This document shows, in pieces, positions 2,293 to 41,033 of a stretch of 45,201 bases of DNA. Numbering within the stretch: position 1 is the first letter of the stretch; every line of letters starts with the position of its first letter. The notes beneath the pieces are model-generated. The model saw only the letters and a program-made list of their open reading frames with translations. It ran no database searches and was not told the DNA's origin. A program made the position numbers and the translations under genes. The stretch comes from Escherichia phage PC2: sequence record NC_073088; one strand, 5' to 3'.

Positions 2293-2570
2293 TGACACCA
2301 GAAGGCAAGGTCCAAACTCACTTGATGAGACGGGTGAAAGAGGTTGGCGGATTCTGCCGTAAAGTGGCGTGGGAGGGGCGCGCAGGTGCGCCCGATCTGA
2401 TCATCATCATCAACGGCAAGATAGTTTTCGTCGAAGTGAAGCGCCCAGGCGGTAAACCTAAGCCGCACCAGGTACGAGAACATGAGCGAATGGCCCGCCG
2501 CGGTGCGGACGTTCGCGTTATCGACAGCATAGCCGACTGTGATTTATTGGTTGCTGAATTGGTCGCGTAG
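2292..2570 (+). CDS. VRR-NUC family nuclease (PD-(D/E)xK fold)
   Basis: 92 aa; motif GAPDLIIII...VFVEVKRPGGKP (D...E.K); start ATG overlaps polymerase stop (TAATG); AGGA upstream. Confidence 0.7.
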   Translation: MTPEGKVQTHLMRRVKEVGGFCRKVAWEGRAGAPDLIIIINGKIVFVEVKRPGGKPKPHQVREHERMARRGADVRVIDSIADCDLLVAELVA

Positions 2571-2579
2571 CGGTATAGT
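2551..2579 (+). promoter_or_regulatory. Candidate promoter (TTGCTG-N17-TATAGT) inside the 3' end of the VRR-NUC gene
   Basis: Hexamers read directly; preceded by TTGGTTGC as in other promoters here. Confidence 0.4.
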
Positions 2580-2610
2580 GTGCCGGTTAGCCATATCGAG
2601 GATTTTAGAG

Positions 2611-2784
2611 ATGATTGAAGAAAAACGTTGCAGTAATTGCGGCTGCGTTAAACCGCTATCCCAGTTCCATAAATACACCGGTAAGACTGCGCGAAGCCCG
2701 GACGGGTATCGGGCAGAGTGCAAATCGTGCCGCAATAAAAAAGAGCGCGAACGGCAGCGCCGCTACCGCGCAGCGCAAAAATAA
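2611..2784 (+). CDS. Small Cys4 zinc-ribbon protein
   Basis: 57 aa with CSNCGC...CKSCRNKK; RBS GAGGA 7 nt upstream of ATG; terminator follows. Confidence 0.45.
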   Translation: MIEEKRCSNCGCVKPLSQFHKYTGKTARSPDGYRAECKSCRNKKERERQRRYRAAQK

Positions 2785-2791
2785 TTAATAC

Positions 2792-2815
2792 GGCGGGCTT
2801 GTCCCGCCATTTTTG
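2792..2815 (+). terminator. Intrinsic terminator
   Basis: GGCGGG-CTTGT-CCCGCC followed by ATTTTTGG, right after the zinc-ribbon ORF stop. Confidence 0.7.
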
Positions 2816-2827
2816 GGAGACATGACG

Positions 2828-3046
2828 ATGAAAGAACATTACCGACTCACCAAGCTGGGCGAATGCAAACCAGGCGATCGCGTATGGTTTATTGCGGGCA
2901 TGAATGACCCGCTGCCGTTGACGGTATGCTGGCAAAAATTTAAGAGCTTCCGGGCGACGGGTGTGCACATCGGGCACCGCACCAACTACGACGCCACAAA
3001 AAGGAACTGGAACAGTGAAACCGAAGTCTGGAAAAAGGCGGAATAA
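2828..3046 (+). CDS. Hypothetical protein
   Basis: ORF after GGGAGA RBS; start chosen at ATG 2828 (the ORF track opens at TTG 2813). Confidence 0.35.
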   Translation: MKEHYRLTKLGECKPGDRVWFIAGMNDPLPLTVCWQKFKSFRATGVHIGHRTNYDATKRNWNSETEVWKKAE

Positions 3047-5502: not shown

Positions 5503-5507
5503 ATTGG

Positions 5508-5536
5508 TTGCATAATCATATTGGTTGCATTATATT
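5508..5536 (+). promoter_or_regulatory. Sigma70-type promoter (TTGCAT-N17-TATATT) with two TTGGTTGCAT copies
   Basis: Hexamers read directly; TTGGTTGCAT at 5504-5513 and 5521-5530. Confidence 0.55.
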
Positions 5537-5582: not shown

Positions 5583-6047
5583 ATGAAAATTTTACAAGAA
5601 GAGAAAAATTACTGGGCCGCGCAATGCCTCGAAGCCCGCGAACAGGCCGAACGTGCGAACGCGCTGGCGGATACCTACCTGTCAAGCTATGAAACGGAAG
5701 AAAAGCGTCGCATAGAGTTAGAGGAGCGCTTCGAACTGCTTTTCGAACTGATGGGGATTATGCAGCGCACCGGATACACCACCAGCGTTGCACTAAACCG
5801 CGTCACCGCCGAAGGTCTGCGCGAGCACTGTAAACGTGCGGAGGAGTACGTGCGACCGAAGGGTCGCCAGTCTAAGGTTGACCGGAAAGACCTTGTGCTT
5901 ATGGCGTGGCGCAACCCTACAAACGGCAGCTTCTACCCGGACGCGCGCCCGCTTAGTGCTGAGGAGTCAAAGCGCGTGCAACGCATTCTCAAAACCGGCA
6001 ATAAAATCGCCCTGTATGCGATAGACACCGACCATGCGGAAGAGTGA
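5583..6047 (+). CDS. Hypothetical protein (predicted coiled-coil N-terminus)
   Basis: 154 aa after RBS GGAGA (7-nt spacing); sits downstream of promoter 5508-5536. Confidence 0.5.
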   Translation: MKILQEEKNYWAAQCLEAREQAERANALADTYLSSYETEEKRRIELEERFELLFELMGIMQRTGYTTSVALNRVTAEGLREHCKRAEEYVRPKGRQSKVDRKDLVLMAWRNPTNGSFYPDARPLSAEESKRVQRILKTGNKIALYAIDTDHAEE

Positions 6048-6519
6048 GCAAAAAGATAGCTGGCGCACGCCGCCAGCTTTATTTAAACCGCTGCGCCGAA
6101 AGTACCGATTCCGTTATGACATGGCGGCGAGCGATGCCAACCACCTGCTACCGCGTTACTTCACGGCGGAGCACAGCGCGCTAGATGTGGACTGGTCAGA
6201 GTTGAAAGGGTGGAAGTGGTGCAACCCACCGTATTCCGATCCGCTGCCGTGGGTCGAGTGCGCAGCGCATGGACGTCGGACCGTCATGCTACTGAATCAG
6301 GATACGTCGACTAAGTGGGCGAAACTGGCCCGGAAGACTGCAAACCTGATAATTCTTCTGGACTGGCGTATCCGATTTATTCACGCTGTAACTGGTGAAG
6401 TCGGGCCTAGCAATAACAAGTGCCAGCAATTGATAATCTTCGACGAAGCGCTACCCTTCGGCGGCGCACAAATTGAAATAATGAGCGAAGGAGAACTCCT
6501 TGAATATCTTAATCGTTGA
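6034..6519 (+). CDS. Phage Dam-like DNA N6-adenine methyltransferase
   Basis: 161 aa; WRTPPALF...DMAASDANHL...WCNPPYSD (NPPY catalytic motif), typical of phage orphan Dam methylases. Confidence 0.75.
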   Translation: MRKSEQKDSWRTPPALFKPLRRKYRFRYDMAASDANHLLPRYFTAEHSALDVDWSELKGWKWCNPPYSDPLPWVECAAHGRRTVMLLNQDTSTKWAKLARKTANLIILLDWRIRFIHAVTGEVGPSNNKCQQLIIFDEALPFGGAQIEIMSEGELLEYLNR

Positions 6520-6724
6520 CCGCGACCCCGCGGTAGTAGACCAAATGCAAAAAGACTACGGTATTGACCCGCGACGCGATCGAGTGGTGCGCGCGTCTCG
6601 CCACGAATACATCATGGGCCTTGACCTCACCGGTTGGCTTGTCATGACTCAGCGTTGCCATTTCGTGTGCAACTCCTTTACTGCGCGAAGTGCCCGTTAC
6701 ACCCTTATTGAGAGTTTAAAATGA
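6500..6724 (+). CDS. Hypothetical small protein
   Basis: 74-aa ORF with non-ATG start after AAGGAG; start uncertain. Confidence 0.3.
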   Translation: MNILIVDRDPAVVDQMQKDYGIDPRRDRVVRASRHEYIMGLDLTGWLVMTQRCHFVCNSFTARSARYTLIESLK

Positions 6725-7191
6725 AATTATTGATTTGCGATTTGGATGGCGTTATTAACGGTTCAAGCGATGCGCGTGCCGACCTGGTACCTGGGATAAA
6801 AACTAAATCCACCTTTTGGGCGAAGTGGCACAAAGCGCACGTCCGCGAAGACCTGAACATGGATATGCTGCCGTTGTTGCGCATGTATAAAGAGCAAGGC
6901 TTCGAGATCGCGTATCTGACCAACCGGCAGCGTGAATGTTGGGACACCACCGCGGAGCAATTGAAGGTCTTCCCAGTAGGCCGGTTGTTTATGCGCCACA
7001 TGCTGGACGACACCCCGCCGCCTGAGTTTAAGGCGTGCGCCGTGTTCAAAATGGTCTGTTACGCGGACGTGTCTGAACTGGTCATCATTGAAGATTGCGA
7101 GAAGAACATCGCGGCAATTCGTCGGGTGTGTGGTGATTTGGTCCCGAAAATTTACGCAATAAACGTTGCAAAATTCACTTGCAACCAATAG
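6721..7191 (+). CDS. HAD-superfamily phosphatase-like protein (possible polynucleotide 3'-phosphatase or nucleotidase)
   Basis: N-terminal HAD motif I LICDLDGVI; ATGA overlap with upstream stop. Confidence 0.55.
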   Translation: MKLLICDLDGVINGSSDARADLVPGIKTKSTFWAKWHKAHVREDLNMDMLPLLRMYKEQGFEIAYLTNRQRECWDTTAEQLKVFPVGRLFMRHMLDDTPPPEFKACAVFKMVCYADVSELVIIEDCEKNIAAIRRVCGDLVPKIYAINVAKFTCNQ

Positions 7192-21104: not shown

Positions 21105-21270
21105 CAGTCTCAGACGAGGGGGGCCAATGACCCCCGTCTAGTCTGAAAGACTGGGCTTTGTCCCGCCTGTCCCGATCGGCTAAAACCAGCGGCAGCACTG
21201 GCGGGGACAGGGGTGCTGTCCCGCTTTGTCCCGACCCATTCTGTCCCGCTTTTTGTCCCGCTTACTTTAT
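21105..21270. repeat. Copy A of the 166-bp GTCCCGC-repeat / hairpin element
   Basis: Aligns block-for-block with 38166-38331; contains the perfect palindrome GCGGGACAG-GGGTG-CTGTCCCGC and six GTCCCG units. Confidence 0.85.
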
Positions 21271-21300
21271 GCACGAAAACTGAATAGATATTCACATTTT

Positions 21301-21430
21301 GGGGGCGGGACAGATCGGGACAGCACCCCTGTCCGCTTTTAATTTATGCAATGCTGGTGGGTAAATATGCAGTTTTTAAAGGTGCGGGATAGAACGGGAC
21401 AAAACGGGACGTCCCGCCTGTCCCGCTCCG
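21301..21430. repeat. Second cluster of GGGACA / GTCCCGC units adjoining copy A
   Basis: GGGCGGGACAGATCGGGACAGCACCCCTGTCCGC and GCGGGATAGAACGGGACAAAACGGGACGTCCCGCCTGTCCCGC; in inverted orientation to the copy A units, across an AT-rich spacer (about 21271-21300). Confidence 0.7.
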
Positions 21431-34706: not shown

Positions 34707-34829
34707 GTATGGCGGCGGGCTATATCAATTCGCAAATAACCATGCCGATAAAAGCCGCGGTGGTCCAGATCGCTAATACCCAAATATCATTACGTGCCAT
34801 CTTGATTACTCCTCTCGTTGATTGGTCGC

Positions 34830-34859
34830 AGTATGGCGTCTATGTTGGTTGCGAGTCAA
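34830..34859 (-). promoter_or_regulatory. Candidate sigma70-type promoter (TTGACT-N18-CATACT) for the mini-ORF / HTH-phosphoesterase operon
   Basis: Minus-strand hexamers read directly; immediately downstream of the terminator at 34868-34895. Confidence 0.35.
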
Positions 34860-34867
34860 GCAATAAA

Positions 34868-34895
34868 AAGCCCGGAATTAACCGGGCTTAATTGT
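34868..34895 (-). terminator. Intrinsic terminator closing the lysis operon (hairpin flanked by T-rich tracts on both strands)
   Basis: GCCCGG-AATTAA-CCGGGC; minus strand continues TTTTTATTG, plus strand continues TTAATTGTTT. Confidence 0.7.
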
Positions 34896-35079: not shown

Positions 35080-35571
35080 TTATGCAGCGTTACGCCCGAT
35101 CTTCTCGGCAACGTCCCACTGCTTACCATCAAACAACGCCTGTCTGCCGATTGCACGGCGTACCAGACCCTTAAGCACTTCCCCGCCTTGCTTGCGGAAC
35201 TGCGGCAGAGTAGCACGGACCTTCGCCCAGTCGCCCAGTCGCACCGCATCATCGAAATCATTCGCGATGTTATCCGGTACGATCGGACCTTGACCGGCAT
35301 TGATTACCAGGTCCACCAGCGCGTCGAATTGCGCCTGGTTAATGCTCGGATGTGCGTATTTGTTCACCCAGTCCTCGGCATACGCCACATCTCGCTTGAG
35401 CAGTTCCAGCGCTTCCGCACGGGTAATGCTTCGAGGCGGGTTAGTGCCGGTATGACCATAACCCCAGGTGTACAGGCCGCGGGCCTGCTCTTTCTTAGTC
35501 GCGAAATACGGCACTGGGCTGAAAGTCTCCCATGCTGCCGTAAATCGTAGACCGTTATCACTGAATCGCAT
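35080..35571 (-). CDS. Endolysin, T4 lysozyme-like (GH24 family)
   Basis: 163 aa; motif GLRFTAAWETF...YTWGYGHTG parallels T4 lysozyme [21 protein letters not shown]; directly after the holin-like genes. Confidence 0.85.
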   Translation of the reverse strand: MRFSDNGLRFTAAWETFSPVPYFATKKEQARGLYTWGYGHTGTNPPRSITRAEALELLKRDVAYAEDWVNKYAHPSINQAQFDALVDLVINAGQGPIVPDNIANDFDDAVRLGDWAKVRATLPQFRKQGGEVLKGLVRRAIGRQALFDGKQWDVAEKIGRNAA

Positions 35572-35803
35572 GTTTTACCCCATTCAAAACAGCATTACGC
35601 AGGGTGCGCAATGCAAACAGCCAGATTAACGCGGTCCAGGTGGTATCAGATACGTCTCCTGTTTGCAACAATCCGATAAGACAGATCATTGCCGTTAACA
35701 GATACAGCACCCGGCCTAAGATACCATCCTGAACGGACGGCGCATATACGTTAAACAGGGACGAAGCCCCGATGATAACAAACAACAGGACGGAGATAAT
35801 CAT
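35558..35803 (-). CDS. Holin / antiholin-like small membrane protein
   Basis: 81 aa with 2-3 predicted transmembrane segments; ATGA overlap with upstream holin; overlaps endolysin start by 14 nt. Confidence 0.5.
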   Translation of the reverse strand: MIISVLLFVIIGASSLFNVYAPSVQDGILGRVLYLLTAMICLIGLLQTGDVSDTTWTALIWLFALRTLRNAVLNGVKHAIQ

Positions 35804-36090
35804 TTTGCACCCCCCGGAAGTCGGAACGACGCAATAGTCTCCCTGATCCGGTCGGCGATTGGCATCCAGAAGATTGCGGTTACGAAGCCCAAACCGGCGA
35901 CAGTGCGCTCACCCGACAAACCAGCCCACTCGGCAATAGCCGGTGCGCCAAATATGGCACACAGGAAGCCAACTACAACATACAAAACGAAGTTTAGCGG
36001 CCCCTTCGTAGCCTCACCATGAATGCGTGCGCCTACGAAGCCACCCGCCAGACATGCCAGGGCGAATAGCCACTCGTTTAGCTTATCCAT
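35800..36090 (-). CDS. Holin
   Basis: 96 aa with about 3 hydrophobic segments and a charged C-terminus; first gene of the holin-endolysin block. Confidence 0.55.
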   Translation of the reverse strand: MDKLNEWLFALACLAGGFVGARIHGEATKGPLNFVLYVVVGFLCAIFGAPAIAEWAGLSGERTVAGLGFVTAIFWMPIADRIRETIASFRLPGGAK

Positions 36091-36142
36091 AAAAAAGTCC
36101 CAGTAAGTTTTAGCTCACTGGGACTATATCACGCTTGCATAA

Positions 36143-36442
36143 TTAATCGAAAATGGACCACTTGCCGACGCCTTTCCACTCCCACCCGGATGACCGGACG
36201 GCTTCGAATGTTCGACCGCCTATCATATCCCGATACCACAGCCACCACATGCGCAACCGGGTCGGGTGCTCCGTTATTCCACGGCGCTTGTAGATCTCGA
36301 ACGTCATGCGGGTAATGCTGGCTGCTTCCACGGCGGGCCATACTACGAACAACAGGACGACCAACAGCACCGCGGTAAGCAGGCACAGCCCGCAGACCAA
36401 ACCAAACCAATAAATCACATCATGAATCATAATCTGCCCCAT
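36143..36442 (-). CDS. Small membrane protein of unknown function
   Basis: 99 aa; N-terminal transmembrane helix (VIYWFGLVCGLCLLTAVLLVVLLFVVW). Confidence 0.45.
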   Translation of the reverse strand: MGQIMIHDVIYWFGLVCGLCLLTAVLLVVLLFVVWPAVEAASITRMTFEIYKRRGITEHPTRLRMWWLWYRDMIGGRTFEAVRSSGWEWKGVGKWSIFD

Positions 36443-36649
36443 AGGTATTTAACCAGACTAATAACAGCCGCCAACAACACCAGGGCCGCCAGACTACCGC
36501 CACATACTACCGCGAAGACGTATAGCATCGAATTGCCCCTTCCGGTTTGCCAATATGGCGCGCCCATGCACGCGCCACGAAGTAATTGCGAAATACCCGA
36601 CCGCCTATCTCAAAGCGGTTGTGCTGAAGCATATCGCGGATCGTCGCAC

Positions 36650-37207
36650 TCATTTCAGAATCACCGAGCGCGGGTCGATGGCGTTCATGCTGCCGTCTCG
36701 TTCTACCCGGATGAATCCAACGCCATATTCCTGCGCATGGCGCTGTGCATTCGTCACGGCGTCAAAGCGATTGACGATTTGGTGTACGGCGCGGCCCATC
36801 TTCGCTTGCACCTGGTGGGCGTCGTAGGTTGCGTAGGCGGGCTGCGACTTGCGGAACTCAACGCTCTCATGCGGCTGGCGTTCGCGAAGGCTGTAGTTGC
36901 GGCCCACGCGCTCGTAGTTGACAAGGCCGAAGTAAGTCATACCGGCGACGCCATCCTTGCGGTTCTGCATACGCAGACCATGAAGACCGACATATTCGAC
37001 GATCCACATACTACCGTCGCGAATATCACGCAGCACATCGCCGCGCTCGATATCATGCGTGACAATATCGAAGTTTTCTGGCAGCTTGTCCTTCTTCGCC
37101 CACCAGACCCGATCGCTTGCGGCGTGGTGTAGGCGCACGTGCGCGACAAGGGTCTGTATTGGCCTAAGAATTTTCCCATCATGCTTGCGGCGGAATAGTA
37201 ATTTCAT
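36650..37207 (-). CDS. Hypothetical protein
   Basis: 185 aa; ATGA coupling with the upstream small ORF. Confidence 0.5.
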   Translation of the reverse strand: MKLLFRRKHDGKILRPIQTLVAHVRLHHAASDRVWWAKKDKLPENFDIVTHDIERGDVLRDIRDGSMWIVEYVGLHGLRMQNRKDGVAGMTYFGLVNYERVGRNYSLRERQPHESVEFRKSQPAYATYDAHQVQAKMGRAVHQIVNRFDAVTNAQRHAQEYGVGFIRVERDGSMNAIDPRSVILK

Positions 37208-37347
37208 TGCTCTGTCTCCTCAATCTCATCGGCAGTTTTCGTGTCGCCATCGCACACCGTAGCGATACCGTCCATCTCATAATCTGCTATGCAGGCATCA
37301 ATAGAAATAAACTTCTGCGAGAATCCCGCCATTAGTGCTGGTGTCAT
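37204..37347 (-). CDS. Small acidic protein
   Basis: 47 aa (MTPALMAGFSQKFISIDACIADYEMDGIATVCDGDTKTADEIEETEQ); ATGA overlaps at both ends. Confidence 0.35.
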   Translation of the reverse strand: MTPALMAGFSQKFISIDACIADYEMDGIATVCDGDTKTADEIEETEQ

Positions 37348-37613
37348 TTGCTCAGTCTCCAGTGTTTGCCTACCCGCTCGACTGCGGGCTTCCGGCGTAA
37401 TGTAATACGGATGCCAATTGGTTGCAAGGACGTTTTTATGGCAAGTCCATGCTCCCTGGCGAACTGGTGCAGATAGCGAGTCTGCGTTAATGGCTTCACA
37501 TCGTCGCGATAGCACCAGAACACAGAATCGCCCTCAACCGCATTCTGCGCCCATATTCGTATGCAATGCAGTGGAATATGCCACGAAAGCTGTTTAGCTC
37601 GTCTGCGGTCCAT
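37344..37613 (-). CDS. Hypothetical protein
   Basis: 89-aa ORF in a chain of coupled early genes. Confidence 0.4.
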   Translation of the reverse strand: MDRRRAKQLSWHIPLHCIRIWAQNAVEGDSVFWCYRDDVKPLTQTRYLHQFAREHGLAIKTSLQPIGIRITLRRKPAVERVGKHWRLSK

Positions 37614-37622
37614 TTTGGCCCC

Positions 37623-37949
37623 TTATTTCGCAAGCTGGGCGAATAACTCACGCTGGGCGGCAATCCGGGCGATGTTTGTTGCTGCCGTCTCACCGATCCC
37701 GAAGCGATACGCCAGGCGCTCGCGAGAGAATGCAAGCGCGTAGTCCTGGATGGCGTTCGCCAGTGGCTGGATCTCTTCCATCGTGTCGAAGCGGCGCCCA
37801 AGCATAACGGTGATGGCCCGCTGCATTACCCTCACAACGGCCCACGCTGCCGATAGTCTTTCTACTGCTTCCACCCCCTCACCGGCGAACTCCGCCGCTT
37901 CTTGTGCCTTCGCCATAGCCATTGCGTAATTCCAGATTAATTTTTTCAT
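37623..37949 (-). CDS. Hypothetical helical protein (first gene of the minus early operon)
   Basis: 108 aa; RBS AGAGGA; directly downstream of promoter 37978-38006. Confidence 0.5.
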   Translation of the reverse strand: MKKLIWNYAMAMAKAQEAAEFAGEGVEAVERLSAAWAVVRVMQRAITVMLGRRFDTMEEIQPLANAIQDYALAFSRERLAYRFGIGETAATNIARIAAQRELFAQLAK

Positions 37950-37977
37950 TGTTCAGTCCTCTTGTTGGTGTGCAACC

Positions 37978-38006
37978 AATCTAGCAGGATGCTGGCATGA
38001 ATGCAA
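37978..38006 (-). promoter_or_regulatory. Sigma70-type promoter (TTGCAT-N17-TAGATT) with an overlapping palindromic operator
   Basis: Minus-strand hexamers read directly; palindrome GTTGGTGTGCAACCAAT at 37964-37980 overlaps the -10; two TGCAACCAA copies at 37971-37979 and 38002-38010. Confidence 0.55.
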
Positions 38007-38165
38007 CCAATATTAATCACGCGTATGAAAAAGTTGATCGCTATCTGCTGTGACTGCAAACTGCATTTTTCACACCCCATTCTGCAACTCGCATTGGTTG
38101 CCTAGTTCAGCGACGACCGCGATTTACAATGTGCTGCCGTGTATTATGCAATCCCGGATTTTATG

Positions 38166-38331
38166 CAGTCTCAGACGAGGGGGTCAGTTGGCCCCCGTCT
38201 AGTCTGAAAGACTGGGAGTTGTCCCGCCTGTCCCGCTCCTCGCCAGGCCGCGTCATCCGGGGCGGGACAGGGGTGCTGTCCCGCTTTGTCCCGCCCCTGG
38301 TCTGTCCCGCTTTTTGTCCCGCTTACTTTAT
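38166..38331. repeat. Copy B of a 166-bp GTCCCGC-repeat / hairpin element
   Basis: Aligns with 21105-21270: identical blocks CAGTCTCAGACGAGGGGG, CCCCCGTCTAGTCTGAAAGACTGGG, TTGTCCCGCCTGTCCCG, GCGGGACAGGGGTGCTGTCCCGCTTTGTCCCG and CTGTCCCGCTTTTTGTCCCGCTTACTTTAT, separated by divergent spacers. Confidence 0.85.
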
Positions 38332-38428: not shown

Positions 38429-40693
38429 TTAATCTTTCAGGTCATCATCGGTCGCCGAAAGCGTTATGGGAATATCCGATTTGATGACCAAATTCGACGA
38501 CCCATAGATGGCCCCGGTGTGCGGATCTGTATAAAAACCAATCACGCCGCGCTCGACCATATCGTCGATTGCCTTCGTCGAAGTGCCTCCCTTAGCGAGT
38601 CCAGCCTGGCGGACAATTGCCGATTTACTGAATCCAGTGTGGTTAGGGTTATCTTCCATCAGTTTTTCCAGTGCCGCATAGAGCACTTTCTCTTTTTCGT
38701 TGCGCGGACCGGCGGTGTTCTCCTCCTTAGCTGCGGCTTTTCCCTCCGCCTTCGCCTGTTCTATAGCGAACGGTGCCAGGGCAACCGGTACGAGGTAGAG
38801 AGTCTCGTCGCGAGGTGTGGAGGCAATCGGCTTGACGTCCCAACCGGCAACCACATCCCCGAAGTCTGGCCCGGTGCTGGTGGACTGGTGCGACGCGAAC
38901 GCTTCTGACTTGCGGAGATCCACCTTCACCTTGCACTTGAGCAGGACGAAGCCACGCGGCGCTTGCTTGATACCGTTACGTGACTTTTCGTGGTACAGGT
39001 TGAGTTGTCCCGGCTGGTTGTCGTCCGGCTGTTCCAGGAAGAACGCAGAATCGACAGCACCATGCAGCGCGCCGGACCCGCGGGGGGTTCTGCTGCCGTT
39101 TGCACCTTTCGCGGGGTGGTGGATGACACCCGCACTGCCACCTGTATTTTCCGCAATGGCCTTCAGCGCTTTGACCACTTCACCCATATCGCTGGCGTTG
39201 TTCTCGTCGAACGGTTTAGCATCAGCGGACCGCAACGCAACAGTCTGGTTGAGTGAGTCGAACGCCACCAGGCCAACCGGTTCGCCGTTAGCGGTGCGGT
39301 TGATAAAGCTGATAACTTCGCGCAAGCCGGATTTGCTGGTGATATCCCAGCCGCGTGACTGCAGATCGATAATGTGCAGCTTGTCCAGGTCGTGCTCGTA
39401 TTTAATCTGCAATGCTTCTTTACGCTGGTTGGAGGCTTCACCACCTTCCGCATCGAAATAGAAGCAATGGGACTGGACGACCTTCGCACCGCCAAACGGA
39501 ATACCGGCGGCAACCGCGCCCATCTGGCCCAGCACGTAGAAAGACTTACCAATATTCGACTCACCCGCCATGTACCAGGTCGATTTGAAGTTAATCAGAC
39601 CTTCGATGATCGGGTCGTGCTTACTGAATAGTGCGACCGGCTCGTTATCCAGATCCGCATCGGTGCACACGCCGTATTCTTCGCCGTCGCCAACCGCATC
39701 AACAATATGTTCATATAAGGATTCGACTTCCTCGTCGTCCAGCCCTGGGAGGATGGCGGCAATTTGCTTACGTGACATGTTGTGCGGCTCGACGTTCAGG
39801 TGGTCCGGTATCCCGATAAGACGTAGCGCCAGGTGCTGGTGTCTATTTAGCTCCGAGCAACACTCGTTTCCGGTGTGCATACACTTGAAACGGATCTCGC
39901 CATCCTTGACCATGATAGCCGTCGACCCTTCGCCGCTGTGCAGATGTTCGTTCGGGCACGGCACTTCATAACCGCGACCAGAAGATAACTCCTCGAATCC
40001 TGCCTGGAAGCACCAGTCCAGAATACCGTCCGCCACTGCGTCGTCGCCCTGGGTAAGCTCGCGGCGTACTTCCTCTTTCTCCACCCCCAGCTTGTCCGCC
40101 AGGCGGAGCAGACGCCGCACATTAGCGCGCTTGCCGTAGTGGCACTTAATAACAGACTGCTGGTGTGGCAAGTACATAAGACGGTTTGTGTCTTTCGTGC
40201 AATCGTCGAAGTCCACATCCGACAGGCCCAGTTGGTCTAACAGCGCGTACTGCACGCGGCCCAGGTCTTCCGCCGGTACTGGTTTATCTGTGAGCACAAG
40301 GAAACGGGCGCAACGCGTGCCGCCTTTCAGCGGGTGGCGGTCGCCGGTGGTTGTGTGGAATACGTGCTCAAGCCCCGCGCCGATGAAAGCCTTGCGGCAG
40401 CGGCGTAGGGTGCGGGTGTCGGTACGGTCAATATCGAAGAACAGGATCGAGCGGTCCACCGCACTTGTCTTGCGGCGTAAGCCGTCACTGGTATACGCTA
40501 CGATGCCATCGGCCTTACGCTTGCGGCGCGCATACTCGGCTTTATCTTCCGTCTTGTTGATATGCACCGAGGAGATTTCTTTCGCATCATTGATAAATTC
40601 GAAAAATTCATCGGTGGTCATCTGGAAGTTTTCCGCCCTGGCTTTTTCGCCTTTTTTAGCGGGTCTTGTTACAGCGAATTTAATTAAGCTCAT
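38429..40693 (-). CDS. Primase-polymerase (AEP-like) fused to a P-loop helicase
   Basis: 754 aa; N-terminal DxD motif (ILFFDIDRTD), central Cys-rich zinc-binding segment (CPNEHLH...CMHTGNECC), C-terminal Walker A (MAGESNIGKSF). Confidence 0.8.
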   Translation of the reverse strand: MSLIKFAVTRPAKKGEKARAENFQMTTDEFFEFINDAKEISSVHINKTEDKAEYARRKRKADGIVAYTSDGLRRKTSAVDRSILFFDIDRTDTRTLRRCRKAFIGAGLEHVFHTTTGDRHPLKGGTRCARFLVLTDKPVPAEDLGRVQYALLDQLGLSDVDFDDCTKDTNRLMYLPHQQSVIKCHYGKRANVRRLLRLADKLGVEKEEVRRELTQGDDAVADGILDWCFQAGFEELSSGRGYEVPCPNEHLHSGEGSTAIMVKDGEIRFKCMHTGNECCSELNRHQHLALRLIGIPDHLNVEPHNMSRKQIAAILPGLDDEEVESLYEHIVDAVGDGEEYGVCTDADLDNEPVALFSKHDPIIEGLINFKSTWYMAGESNIGKSFYVLGQMGAVAAGIPFGGAKVVQSHCFYFDAEGGEASNQRKEALQIKYEHDLDKLHIIDLQSRGWDITSKSGLREVISFINRTANGEPVGLVAFDSLNQTVALRSADAKPFDENNASDMGEVVKALKAIAENTGGSAGVIHHPAKGANGSRTPRGSGALHGAVDSAFFLEQPDDNQPGQLNLYHEKSRNGIKQAPRGFVLLKCKVKVDLRKSEAFASHQSTSTGPDFGDVVAGWDVKPIASTPRDETLYLVPVALAPFAIEQAKAEGKAAAKEENTAGPRNEKEKVLYAALEKLMEDNPNHTGFSKSAIVRQAGLAKGGTSTKAIDDMVERGVIGFYTDPHTGAIYGSSNLVIKSDIPITLSATDDDLKD

Positions 40694-40703
40694 TGCCGTG
40701 GCC

Positions 40704-41033
40704 TTACTTAGAAGTTTTATTATTGCGTACCCAGGAGCGCACTGTGCTCTGATTAATTCCGGTCAACTCGGCAATCATTGCCCAGGATTTTCCCTCGGCG
40801 CGCAAACGGATAACCTGTTTTTTGTATTCTTCCATTTCTTCATTGTGCTTTTGCAGCTTGCTGGCTGCCGTACCGTTGAGCAATTCCAGCCTGGCGCGTA
40901 ATTCTTTTTCTACACTGCGCAGGCGCTCGACCTCAAATAGCACCGCCCCCACGGCATCGGTATAAGCCCATGACCGGCTTGTTTCACTGCTAACAGTCTT
41001 CGTTAACATTTCGATTGCGTCGTTTACATTCAT
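40704..41033 (-). CDS. Transcriptional regulator with C-terminal helix-turn-helix
   Basis: 109 aa; coiled-coil N-terminus; C-terminal HTH (GKSWAMIAELTGINQSTVRSWV); RBS GAGGG; first gene after promoter 41065-41093. Confidence 0.55.
   Translation of the reverse strand: MNVNDAIEMLTKTVSSETSRSWAYTDAVGAVLFEVERLRSVEKELRARLELLNGTAASKLQKHNEEMEEYKKQVIRLRAEGKSWAMIAELTGINQSTVRSWVRNNKTSK

What the first reader, a model, noticed from the sequence alone, without database searches (positions are those of the whole stretch)
36143..37949. Chain of small, tightly coupled early ORFs of unknown function between the primase and lysis genes
At least six ORFs of 47-185 aa are packed with ATGA or TAATG overlaps downstream of the operator-bearing promoter at 37978-38006: 37623-37949, 37344-37613, 37204-37347, 36650-37207, two unlisted ORFs of about 48 and 36 aa, and a membrane protein at 36143-36442. 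None has a motif I can recognise. Small early genes in this position are the usual home of host-takeover and anti-defence proteins.
Basis: inference. Interest (0 to 1): 0.5.

Follow-up and report, generated by a model that had tools for sequence, protein, structure and literature searches.

The report
Conserved orphan-gene operon before lysis genes
This stretch of a known type of E. coli phage (Dhillonvirus, phage PC2) is a real, tightly packed operon of seven small genes that nearly every relative keeps. No function can be assigned to any of them, so it is an ordinary block of uncharacterised phage genes, not a demonstrated anti-defence locus.

Summary
The window is Escherichia phage PC2, a Dhillonvirus. 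The ORF chain is real. Seven minus-strand genes (108, 89, 47, 185, 48, 33 and 95-99 aa) fill 36143-37949 with four ATGA overlaps. All are under purifying selection (dN/dS 0.12-0.46), and five occur in 150-155 of 155 related phage records.

A sigma-70-like promoter (TTGCAT-17-TAGATT, 37978-38006) precedes the chain. It carries a motif, ATTGGTTGC, found at 13 exact sites in the genome. A strong terminator (36096-36125) ends the chain just before the holin gene.

Pfam, NCBIfam, PADLOC, PHROGs, PDB sequence searches, AlphaFold and fold searches gave no function. The 108-aa protein is a confident four-helix bundle with a hypervariable middle. The 185-aa protein is a fast-evolving two-domain orphan. 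Only the membrane protein has relatives outside the genus (Salmonella Jerseyvirus).

The genus's proven anti-defence gene (anti-Tmn) and Avs2 trigger (Ksap1) map elsewhere in the window. The anti-Tmn homologue has the same promoter type as the chain.

Most likely this is an early-type operon of genus-specific, non-structural binding proteins for host or phage control. An anti-defence role is neither shown nor excluded. Interest is modest.

The parts
37978..38006 (-). Sigma-70-like promoter of the operon: -35 TTGCAT (38001-38006), 17-nt spacer, -10 TAGATT (37978-37983). Predicted start near 37971.
   Evidence: Sequence. Core conserved in 14 relatives, where the -10 is mostly TATATT. Same TTGCAT-N17-TAnATT pattern at 5508-5536. 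No transcript data.
37972..38011 (-).
   Evidence: 13 exact copies in the window against about 0.34 expected (my arithmetic). With up to 1 mismatch, 27 against 12.3 +/- 3.2 in shuffles. The other copies sit at other promoter-like sites.
37623..37949 (-). Gene 1, 108 aa (gp50 of SO-1 numbering): four-helix bundle with conserved N-terminus and C-terminal 45 residues and a hypervariable middle (residues 18-62).
   Evidence: AF2 pLDDT 91.8, pTM 0.83. Alignment. dN/dS 0.46. In 155 records at 50-98% identity. Fold matches only its own family in BFVD and generic helical bundles in the PDB.
37344..37613 (-). Gene 2, 89 aa (gp51): very basic (pI 10.9, net +11) and highly conserved.
   Evidence: dN/dS 0.17. 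In 155 records, 152 near full length. No Pfam, NCBIfam, PADLOC or significant PDB match. Charge.
37204..37347 (-). Gene 3, 47 aa: acidic peptide (pI 4.1, net -9), joined by ATGA overlaps to both neighbours. Variable presence.
   Evidence: dN/dS 0.17. In 103 of about 155 records. phrog_15977, unknown function.
36650..37207 (-). Gene 4, 185 aa (gp52): beta-rich N-terminal domain (about 1-103), variable linker with indels, and a C-terminal helix plus beta-hairpin domain (about 130-185).
   Evidence: Alignment. AF2 is weak, pLDDT 60. dN/dS 0.25. In 154 records at 40-93% identity. Only 21 cluster representatives among 1.84 billion proteins.
36507..36653 (-). Gene 5, 48 aa (45 conserved residues): basic (pI 11.2) and the most conserved member.
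   Evidence: dN/dS 0.12. In 150 records at 87-100% identity. phrog_13628.
36427..36528 (-). Gene 6, 33 aa: single transmembrane peptide, present or absent through a 98-bp indel.
   Evidence: Hydropathy 2.59 over 19 residues and a GGAAGGGG ribosome-binding site. Present in 6 of 14 relatives. Short variants use the same ATG for the next gene. dN/dS 0.32 on few pairs.
36143..36430 (-). Gene 7, 95 aa (99 aa if started at 36442; gp53): N-terminal membrane anchor plus a conserved Trp/Arg-rich soluble domain.
   Evidence: Hydropathy 3.17. dN/dS 0.19. The soluble domain is also found in about 300 Salmonella Jerseyvirus records at 40-44% identity.
36091..36125 (-). Intrinsic terminator ending the operon: 12-bp stem, 6-nt loop and a T-run that reaches the holin ATG at 36090.
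   Evidence: -24.1 kcal/mol. The whole spacer from gene 7 to the holin is near-invariant in 15 genomes.
36123..36131 (-). TGATATAGT, an extended -10-like element overlapping the 5' arm of the terminator. Candidate promoter for the lysis cassette (hypothesis only).
   Evidence: Sequence. Invariant in relatives. A transcript from about 36116 cannot form the hairpin (-0.5 kcal/mol). It is the only copy in the window, but one copy is expected by chance in 49 of 100 shuffles.

Best explanation
The region is a self-contained operon of seven real genes in the lytic E. coli siphophage PC2 (genus Dhillonvirus).

Shown:
- Host-type promoter signals (TTGCAT-17-TAGATT) carrying the phage's own promoter-associated motif lie 21-50 nt upstream of the first gene.
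- The genes are linked by 4-nt overlaps or short gaps, and each has its own ribosome-binding site.
- A strong hairpin terminator lies immediately before the holin gene.
- Five products are core to the genus. Two vary in presence (the acidic 47-aa peptide and the 33-aa membrane peptide).
- None resembles an enzyme, a virion protein or any characterised family.

Inferred:
- The operon is transcribed by host RNA polymerase early or in mid-infection, together with the other ATTGGTTGC-type promoters. One of these serves the anti-Tmn homologue.
- The terminator insulates the lysis genes from this transcription.
- The products act by binding other macromolecules. The three basic proteins (89, 185 and 48 aa) probably bind nucleic acid or the transcription/replication machinery. 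The four-helix bundle, with a fast-changing surface on a fixed scaffold, probably binds a variable partner. The 33-aa and 95-aa membrane proteins probably act at the inner membrane.

Overall this is a genus-specific control or host-interaction module, not a swappable anti-defence island.
For: - Identity of the phage: 155 related records; 100% match to phage PC2, contig of 45201 nt.
- Genes are real: dN/dS 0.12-0.46 against 0.79 for the upstream pseudo-ORF; presence in 150-155 of 155 records for five genes.
- Operon boundaries: conserved promoter; terminator of -24.1 kcal/mol in an invariant spacer.
- Promoter class is shared with the anti-Tmn homologue (PMC11846954).
- The motif is genome-wide. 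A bona fide HTH / sigma region 4-like protein at 40704-41033 is a candidate binder.
- No enzyme, structural or defence-related family.
- Not among the proteins detected in virions or lysate of the relative EE09 (PMC10673088; the EE09_46 homologue is).
- Charge properties.
- Hypervariable middle of the 108-aa protein with a confident fold.
- The lysis cassette has terminators on both sides, consistent with modular transcription units.
Against: - No transcript, ribosome-profiling or proteomic evidence exists for timing or for expression. The EE09 study detected only four phage proteins in infected cells, none from this chain.
- Function is inferred from size, charge, position and evolutionary pattern only.
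- The promoter's -35 matches the consensus at only 3 of 6 positions.
- Core conservation fits an essential regulatory or replication role equally well.
- The membrane protein is shared with Jerseyvirus, near a homologous lysis cassette. This hints at a lysis-linked role for at least that gene.
Confidence: 0.5

Rival explanations
1. Anti-defence locus. One or more products inhibit a bacterial immune system, for example by direct binding or DNA mimicry. The best candidates are the hypervariable 108-aa bundle, the acidic 47-aa peptide and the fast-evolving 185-aa protein.
For: - Same promoter type as the anti-Tmn homologue.
- The 108-aa and 185-aa proteins diverge far faster (50-95% and 40-93% identity) than the flanking primase, holins and lysin (88-100% over full-length matches).
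- The 47-aa peptide is highly acidic (net -9) and present in only about two-thirds of genomes.
- Relatives carry extra small genes in a slot just upstream of gene 1.
Against: - Five of the seven genes are genus-core.
- No HTH Aca-like regulator lies in the chain.
- No match in PADLOC (a defence library, so a weak test) or to any solved anti-defence structure.
- dN/dS stays below 1 even in the hypervariable segment (0.51).
- The experimentally identified anti-defence gene and defence trigger of the genus lie in the other arm of the genome.
Confidence: 0.2
2. Developmental regulators of late transcription or lysis timing. The position mirrors the lambda Q / nin region. A chain product would let RNA polymerase pass the terminator or activate the element overlapping it. 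The membrane proteins would tune holin triggering.
For: - The chain abuts the holin gene.
- The terminator's T-run touches the holin start codon, and the spacer is invariant.
- The lysis cassette is bracketed by terminators and has no other visible promoter.
- The membrane protein co-occurs with a homologous lysis cassette in Jerseyvirus.
- The N-terminal domain of the 185-aa protein gives its best, though non-significant, fold matches to the RapA N-terminal domain and Spt5 KOW barrels.
Against: - No similarity to Q, to other antiterminators, or to holin, antiholin or spanin families.
- The terminator separates the membrane genes from the holins.
- In Jerseyvirus the homologue lies about 1.1 kb downstream of the lysin, among other small ORFs.
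- The fold model behind the KOW/RapA hits is of low confidence (pLDDT 60).
- The extended -10 element is not statistically notable.
Confidence: 0.2
3. Replication or recombination accessories (a nin-like region in function as well as position) that act with the adjacent primase-helicase and the iteron-like repeats.
For: - The chain lies immediately downstream of the primase-helicase and of a conserved 480-nt non-coding region. That region holds seven GCGGGACA repeats and a GC-rich hairpin.
- Three products are strongly basic.
Against: - No match to NinB/Orf, NinG/Rap, NinH or any DNA-metabolism family.
- The chain has its own promoter downstream of the repeats.
Confidence: 0.1

Closest known systems
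Lambda nin region (ninA-ninI between replication genes O/P and Q, followed by pR'-tR' and the lysis genes S, R, Rz)
   Same: A run of small, overlapping, same-strand ORFs sits between the replication genes and the lysis cassette. A terminator lies just upstream of the holin. (Position from the sequence; lambda layout from established knowledge.)
   Different: No sequence or family relationship to any Nin protein or to Q. Here the chain has its own promoter. The phage is strictly lytic and no antiterminator has been identified.
Anti-defence (acr-aca type) operons and the Dhillonvirus anti-Tmn gene (PMC11846954)
   Same: Small orphan genes sit behind a promoter with repeated motifs. The promoter architecture is the same as that of the window's anti-Tmn homologue at 5583-6047. 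Two members evolve fast.
   Different: No Aca-like HTH gene. Gene content is mostly fixed across the genus. No homology to anti-Tmn or to any known inhibitor. The repeated motif is genome-wide, not local.
Early orphan-gene clusters of lytic coliphages (T7 class I genes 0.3-0.7, T4 immediate-early small ORFs, T5 pre-early genes)
   Same: Tightly coupled small genes of unknown or host-directed function, read by host RNA polymerase from sigma-70-like promoters. (General knowledge; analogy only.)
   Different: No homologues are shared. Early timing is not demonstrated here.
Small-ORF chain between lysozyme and terminase in Salmonella Jerseyvirus phages (e.g. L223, PIZ SAE-01E2)
   Same: It contains a true homologue of the 95-aa membrane protein (38-44% identity over the soluble domain). 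It sits near a homologous holin-holin-lysozyme cassette.
   Different: None of the other six genes is shared. There the homologue lies downstream of the lysis genes. It is equally uncharacterised.

Membership tests
Anti-defence operon of the acr-aca type | An HTH (Aca-like) autoregulator is encoded in the operon | tested here: not met
   No HTH family reaches threshold in any of the seven proteins. The one weak HTH_Tnp_4 hit in the 108-aa protein (E=0.028) falls in a predicted four-helix bundle with 19-27-residue helices.
Anti-defence operon of the acr-aca type | Accessory distribution: gene content differs between close relatives | tested here: inconclusive
   Five genes occur in 150-155 of 155 records. 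The 47-aa gene occurs in 103. The 33-aa gene occurs in 6 of 14 sampled relatives. Relatives carry extra genes upstream of gene 1.
Anti-defence operon of the acr-aca type | Homology to, or demonstrated activity as, an inhibitor of a defence system | not testable with these tools
   No anti-defence protein library was available. PDB sequence and fold searches gave nothing specific. Activity needs experiments.
Lambda nin-region proteins / Q antiterminator | Membership of NinB, NinG, NinH, NinF or Q families | tested here: not met
   No Pfam or NCBIfam hit for any chain protein.
Lambda nin-region proteins / Q antiterminator | Position between the replication genes and a terminator-preceded lysis cassette | tested here: met
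   Primase-helicase at 38429-40693, chain at 36143-37949, terminator at 36096-36125, holins and lysin at 35080-36090.
Lysis cassette components (holin, antiholin, spanin) for the 33-aa and 95-aa proteins | Homology to a lysis-category family | tested here: not met
   The 95-aa protein matches phrog_2531 and phrog_31127, both 'unknown function'. The neighbouring holins match lysis PHROGs. The 33-aa peptide matches nothing.
Lysis cassette components (holin, antiholin, spanin) for the 33-aa and 95-aa proteins | Same transcription unit as the holin and endolysin | tested here: inconclusive
   A -24.1 kcal/mol terminator separates them. Read-through cannot be excluded without transcript data.
RNA polymerase omega subunit (RpoZ/Rpb6) for the C-terminal domain of the 185-aa protein | Significant match to the omega family profile or sequence | tested here: not met
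   The best PDB hits are omega subunits, but at E=0.34 and 13.8 bits over 29 residues. hhalign gives probability 37.6%. No PF01192 hit in any of 50 family members.
RNA polymerase omega subunit (RpoZ/Rpb6) for the C-terminal domain of the 185-aa protein | The omega-like NRFD helix is conserved across the phage family | tested here: not met
   The divergent members P0259 and P0274 keep the YG-x-GF...DG...DP hairpin but lack NRFD.

The most novel reading that the evidence does not exclude
The 185-aa protein is a new kind of host RNA-polymerase-docking factor. Its C-terminal helix would imitate the beta'-binding N-terminus of the omega subunit (NRFD...A..R.A....VG). Its N-terminal tandem barrels would resemble the RNA-polymerase-binding domains of RapA, NusG or Spt5. 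Bound to polymerase, it would reprogramme transcription, for instance allowing passage of the terminator in front of the lysis and late genes. The evidence is two independent but individually non-significant pointers. A divergent subgroup lacks the motif, which argues against the idea.
Probability: 0.05. Interest if true: 0.75.

Novelty: new member of a known kind. Interest (0 to 1): 0.3.

Why it matters
Dhillonviruses are among the most frequently isolated coliphages. They belong to the BASEL reference collection and are candidates for phage therapy. About 4% of their genome is this conserved block of seven genes with no known function.

Knowing that the block is a discrete, genus-core operon with defined promoter and terminator signals gives clean targets for deletion and expression studies. 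The fast-evolving 108-aa and 185-aa proteins are the most promising candidates for new host-interaction or counter-defence activities.

The genome-wide ATTGGTTGC promoter motif and the terminator/promoter overlap before the holin gene are testable entry points into how these phages time their gene expression, which has not been studied.

If the genes prove to be housekeeping regulators, the result is of specialist interest only.

Tried and rejected
1. The 44-aa ORF at 37946-38080, annotated in some relatives, as an eighth gene. Rejected: dN/dS is 0.79 and it spans the conserved promoter.

2. The 288-aa antisense ORF at 36266-37132. Rejected: it is broken in most relatives.

3. The 108-aa protein as an HTH repressor of its own promoter. 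Not supported: the Pfam hit is far below threshold and AF2 gives a four-helix bundle. The fold matches generic bundles only. A real HTH protein exists elsewhere, at 40704-41033.

4. An omega-subunit mimic in the 185-aa protein. This is a weak lead, undermined by the absence of a Pfam hit and by loss of the motif in divergent members.

5. A fold assignment for the 185-aa protein. The model is too poor (pLDDT 60), and all Foldseek hits have E>0.02.

6. Anti-Tmn or Ksap1 lying inside the chain. Rejected: they map to 5583-6047 and 6500-6724.

7. The membrane protein as a spanin. Unlikely: it has a single N-terminal anchor, positive charges follow the anchor (suggesting a cytoplasmic domain), it has no lipobox, and it matches no lysis PHROG.

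8. Remote homologues. Word-indexed searches over 5.8 billion proteins for the 185-aa, 108-aa and 95-aa proteins found only close relatives. An exhaustive profile search over 1.84 billion representatives found only 21 clusters.

9. Rfam on the whole window: no hit.

10. Literature. I found no transcriptome, essentiality or functional data for these genes. SECphi18 escape-mutant studies point to the portal, SSB, DNA polymerase and Ksap1, not to this chain.
Full report
**Identity and context**

A megablast of 36000-38200 finds 155 phage records, almost all Escherichia or Shigella phages of the genus Dhillonvirus. Identity is 82-94% over the listed full-length matches. The 108-aa protein is 100% identical to a protein of Escherichia phage PC2 on a 45,201-nt contig, the length of the window. 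The window is therefore a complete, permuted genome of a lytic siphophage.

The plus-strand arm runs from about 41.4 kb through 45.2 kb and on from 1 to 8.4 kb. It carries the DNA polymerase, helicase, methyltransferases and other DNA-metabolism genes. The minus-strand arm runs from 41.0 kb down to 8.5 kb. In order, it carries:
- an HTH protein (40704-41033);
- the primase-helicase (38429-40693);
- a 479-nt non-coding region;
- the chain under study;
- two holins and a lysozyme (35080-36090);
- a phosphoesterase, the terminase and the structural genes.

Seven minus-strand ORFs occupy 36143-37949 with almost no non-coding DNA:

| Gene | Coordinates | Length |
|---|---|---|
| 1 | 37623-37949 | 108 aa |
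| 2 | 37344-37613 | 89 aa |
| 3 | 37204-37347 | 47 aa |
| 4 | 36650-37207 | 185 aa |
| 5 | 36507-36653 | 48 aa |
| 6 | 36427-36528 | 33 aa |
| 7 | 36143-36430 (or -36442) | 95 (or 99) aa |

Four junctions are ATGA overlaps, one is a 9-nt gap and one is a 22-nt overlap. I found no TAATG overlap. Each start is preceded by a purine-rich ribosome-binding sequence.

Fourteen related loci were collected. Codon-aligned Nei-Gojobori estimates give these dN/dS values:

| ORF | dN/dS |
|---|---|
| 108 aa | 0.46 |
| 89 aa | 0.17 |
| 47 aa | 0.17 |
| 185 aa | 0.25 |
| 48 aa | 0.12 |
| 33 aa | 0.32 |
| membrane protein | 0.19 |
| holins and lysin | 0.05-0.13 |
| upstream 44-aa ORF (37946-38080) | 0.79 |

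The 44-aa ORF, annotated in some relatives, spans the promoter and is best read as non-coding. The long antisense ORF at 36266-37132 is interrupted in most relatives.

tblastn against 50,697 phage records finds the proteins in the following numbers of records, all Dhillonvirus:
- 89-aa: 155;
- 108-aa: 155;
- 185-aa: 154;
- 48-aa: 150;
- 47-aa: 103.

Five genes are therefore core to the genus and two are variable.

**The 33-aa peptide and the membrane protein**

The 33-aa gene comes and goes through a 98-bp indel. In the short form, the same ATG and ribosome-binding site serve the membrane protein directly. This places the real start of the membrane protein at 36430.

**Boundaries**

Upstream, the 479-nt spacer is highly conserved as DNA. 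It ends in TTGCAT (38001-38006), 17 nt, TAGATT (37978-37983; TATATT in most relatives). An AGAGGA ribosome-binding site and the ATG at 37949 follow.

One supplies the -35 and the other overlaps the -10. The motif is not local. There are 13 exact copies in the window, against about 0.34 expected by my arithmetic. With one mismatch allowed there are 27, against 12.3 +/- 3.2 in shuffles. By my reading, all but one or two copies fall between genes and are oriented with the downstream gene. They are often paired, and they usually provide a TTGCxx -35 or sit in the spacer of a promoter-like site.

The exact pattern TTGCAT-N17-TAnATT occurs only twice in the window: here, and at 5508-5536. The second site lies just upstream of a gene 84% identical to the experimentally proven anti-Tmn protein of phage SM_S22 (PMC11846954). 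A protein with a genuine HTH / sigma-70 region 4-like domain is encoded at 40704-41033 and is the obvious candidate for binding the motif. None of the chain proteins is.

Downstream, a 12-bp hairpin with a T-run (36091-36125, -24.1 kcal/mol) ends the operon. Its T-run abuts the holin ATG. The 52-nt spacer is nearly invariant in 15 genomes. The lysis cassette is closed by another terminator at 34868-34889, so the arm is built of separate promoter-to-terminator modules.

The only promoter-like element that could serve the holin is TGATATAGT (36123-36131), which overlaps the 5' arm of the terminator. A transcript starting about 7 nt downstream would lack that arm and would not fold (-0.5 kcal/mol). 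This is an inference. A single copy of the element is not statistically remarkable.

**What the proteins are**

Pfam, NCBIfam and PADLOC give nothing for any of the seven. PHROGs place six of the seven in families of unknown function, and the 33-aa peptide matches no family.

*185-aa protein.* It has:
- a beta-rich N-terminal domain with an invariant THDIERGDVLRDIRDG..W.VE segment;
- a linker with 5-20-residue indels;
- a C-terminal helix plus hairpin (YG-x-GF-x-R-V..DG....IDP).

The AF2 model is poor (pLDDT 60). Its best Foldseek matches are SH3/Tudor/KOW-like barrels (TraI, the RapA N-terminal domain, Spt5 KOW), all non-significant (E >= 0.026). An exhaustive profile search of 1.84 billion representatives finds only 21 clusters, mostly fragments or fusions. 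These include natural variants in which the 47-aa N-terminus is fused to the C-terminal domain.

*Other products.* The 89-aa (pI 10.9), 48-aa (pI 11.2) and 185-aa (pI 9.9) proteins are basic. The 47-aa peptide is strongly acidic (net -9). PDB sequence searches give nothing significant.

*Membrane protein.* It has a variable N-terminal anchor and a highly conserved soluble domain. That domain alone extends beyond the genus. About 300 Salmonella Jerseyvirus records, plus a few Erwinia, Pectobacterium and Proteus phages, encode a homologue at 38-44% identity. In Jerseyvirus it sits in another chain of small ORFs, between a homologous holin-holin-lysozyme cassette and the terminase.

**The omega lead**

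The profile of the 185-aa family gives E. coli RNA polymerase omega as its best PDB hit: residues 136-164 against omega residues 4-32, sharing NRFD and several helix positions. The statistics are weak, at E=0.34 and hhalign probability 37.6%. No member hits the Pfam omega/Rpb6 model. Divergent family members retain the hairpin but not the NRFD helix. I treat this as most likely a chance match and keep it only as the low-probability novel reading.

**Comparison with what is known in the genus**

Two Dhillonvirus small proteins have experimental roles, and both lie in the plus-strand arm, not in the chain.
- Anti-Tmn (PMC11846954) has a homologue at 5583-6047.
- Ksap1, the 74-aa trigger of KpAvs2, lies between a methyltransferase gene and a phosphatase gene (PMC11564622). 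The window has a 74-aa ORF at 6500-6724 in exactly that position, with Leu47 and Thr50 as in the paper's escape mutants.

Escape-mutant studies with SECphi18 and SECphi6 implicate the portal, SSB and DNA polymerase, never these genes. The only proteomic study of a Dhillonvirus, on EE09, did not detect any chain product. It detected only four phage proteins in infected cells (PMC10673088). I found no transcriptomic or essentiality data.

**Interpretation**

Shown:
- a discrete, conserved, seven-gene operon with promoter-like and terminator signals;
- all seven genes under purifying selection;
- five core and two variable genes;
- no recognisable family;
- one confident novel-sequence four-helix bundle with a hypervariable segment.

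Inferred:
- early or middle transcription by host polymerase, from the promoter class it shares with the anti-Tmn homologue;
- insulation from the lysis genes by the terminator;
- action through binding, not catalysis.

Core conservation and the absence of an Aca-like regulator argue against a classical accessory anti-defence island. The rapid divergence of the 108-aa and 185-aa proteins relative to their neighbours keeps a host-interface role alive. Roles in late transcription, lysis timing or replication are comparably plausible rivals.

**Verdict**

The finding is real and correctly located, but ordinary in kind. It is a genus-specific block of uncharacterised small phage genes, already annotated as hypothetical proteins in about 150 genomes. 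Interest is 0.3. Novelty: a new member of a known kind.

Noticed in passing
window 5583-6047 (+), promoter-like site 5503-5536: Homologue (84% identity, 154 aa) of the experimentally proven anti-Tmn protein of phage SM_S22. The deposited SM_S22 record labels that gene 'DNA ligase'. It is preceded by two ATTGGTTGC copies and the same TTGCAT-N17-TATATT pattern as the chain's promoter.
   Followed up: yes
window 6500-6724 (+): 74-aa ORF (TTG start) between the methyltransferase and the HAD/PNK-like phosphatase gene, with Leu47 and Thr50. By position and length it is the Ksap1 homologue, the trigger of Klebsiella Avs2. No sequence comparison was possible.
   Followed up: partly
window-wide; exact copies at 2546, 5503, 5520, 7181, 10900, 27014, 37417, 37972, 38003, 38093, 38374, 38409, 41226: ATTGGTTGC is a genome-wide motif, mostly intergenic and often paired, that usually supplies a TTGCxx -35 element. 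It looks like the signature of a phage promoter class or a regulator's binding site. The copies at 7181/7192 form a palindrome between divergent genes.
   Followed up: partly
window 38220-38322 and 21159-21426: Two clusters of the 8-mer GCGGGACA: 7 and 6 copies, including one inverted copy in each. In total 15 copies against 2.1 expected. One cluster lies in the primase-to-chain spacer and the other in a non-coding gap among the tail genes. They look like iterons (an origin or a protein-binding array). SM_S22 has the first block duplicated.
   Followed up: partly
window about 38160-38215 (-): Conserved GC-rich hairpin (AGACGGGGG-loop-CCCCCTCGTCT) whose loop varies between phages, preceded by a small AGTCT-TTC-AGACT hairpin. 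No T-run follows, so it is not an obvious terminator.
   Followed up: no
window 40704-41033 (-): The first gene of the leftward arm encodes a 109-aa protein with a C-terminal HTH (HTH_23 and Sigma70_r4_2, above the Pfam thresholds). Relatives annotate it variously as transposase, resolvase or Gam. It is a candidate binder of the promoter motif.
   Followed up: partly
L003 (SM_S22), L009, L010 and L013, between the promoter and the gene 1 homologue; also P0167 and P0199: Relatives carry an extra small gene at the head of the operon: either a 59-aa MKTEMV... protein (gp49) or a 58-aa MKFPVIIKDG... protein, sometimes annotated as fused to gene 1. The slot is empty in this window. This is the truly variable, accessory-like position of the locus.
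   Followed up: partly
window 34821-34889: Two one-mismatch copies of the motif lie on the plus strand (antisense to the late genes). A bidirectional terminator (34868-34889) follows them directly and also closes the lysis cassette. This could be a short antisense transcript.
   Followed up: no
proteins P0260, P0262, P0264: Metagenomic variants in which the N-terminus of the 47-aa peptide, or an unrelated helical N-terminus, is fused directly to the C-terminal domain of the 185-aa protein. This suggests that the C-terminal domain is an independent module and that the barrel domain is dispensable in some phages. Alternatively these are assembly artefacts.
   Followed up: no
window 2293-2960 compared with L003 28908-30331: PC2 has only about 670 nt between the DNA polymerase and the helicase, where SM_S22 has about 1.4 kb. 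The SM_S22 stretch encodes endonuclease VII-like, endonuclease and Lar-like genes. This is another variable region.
   Followed up: no
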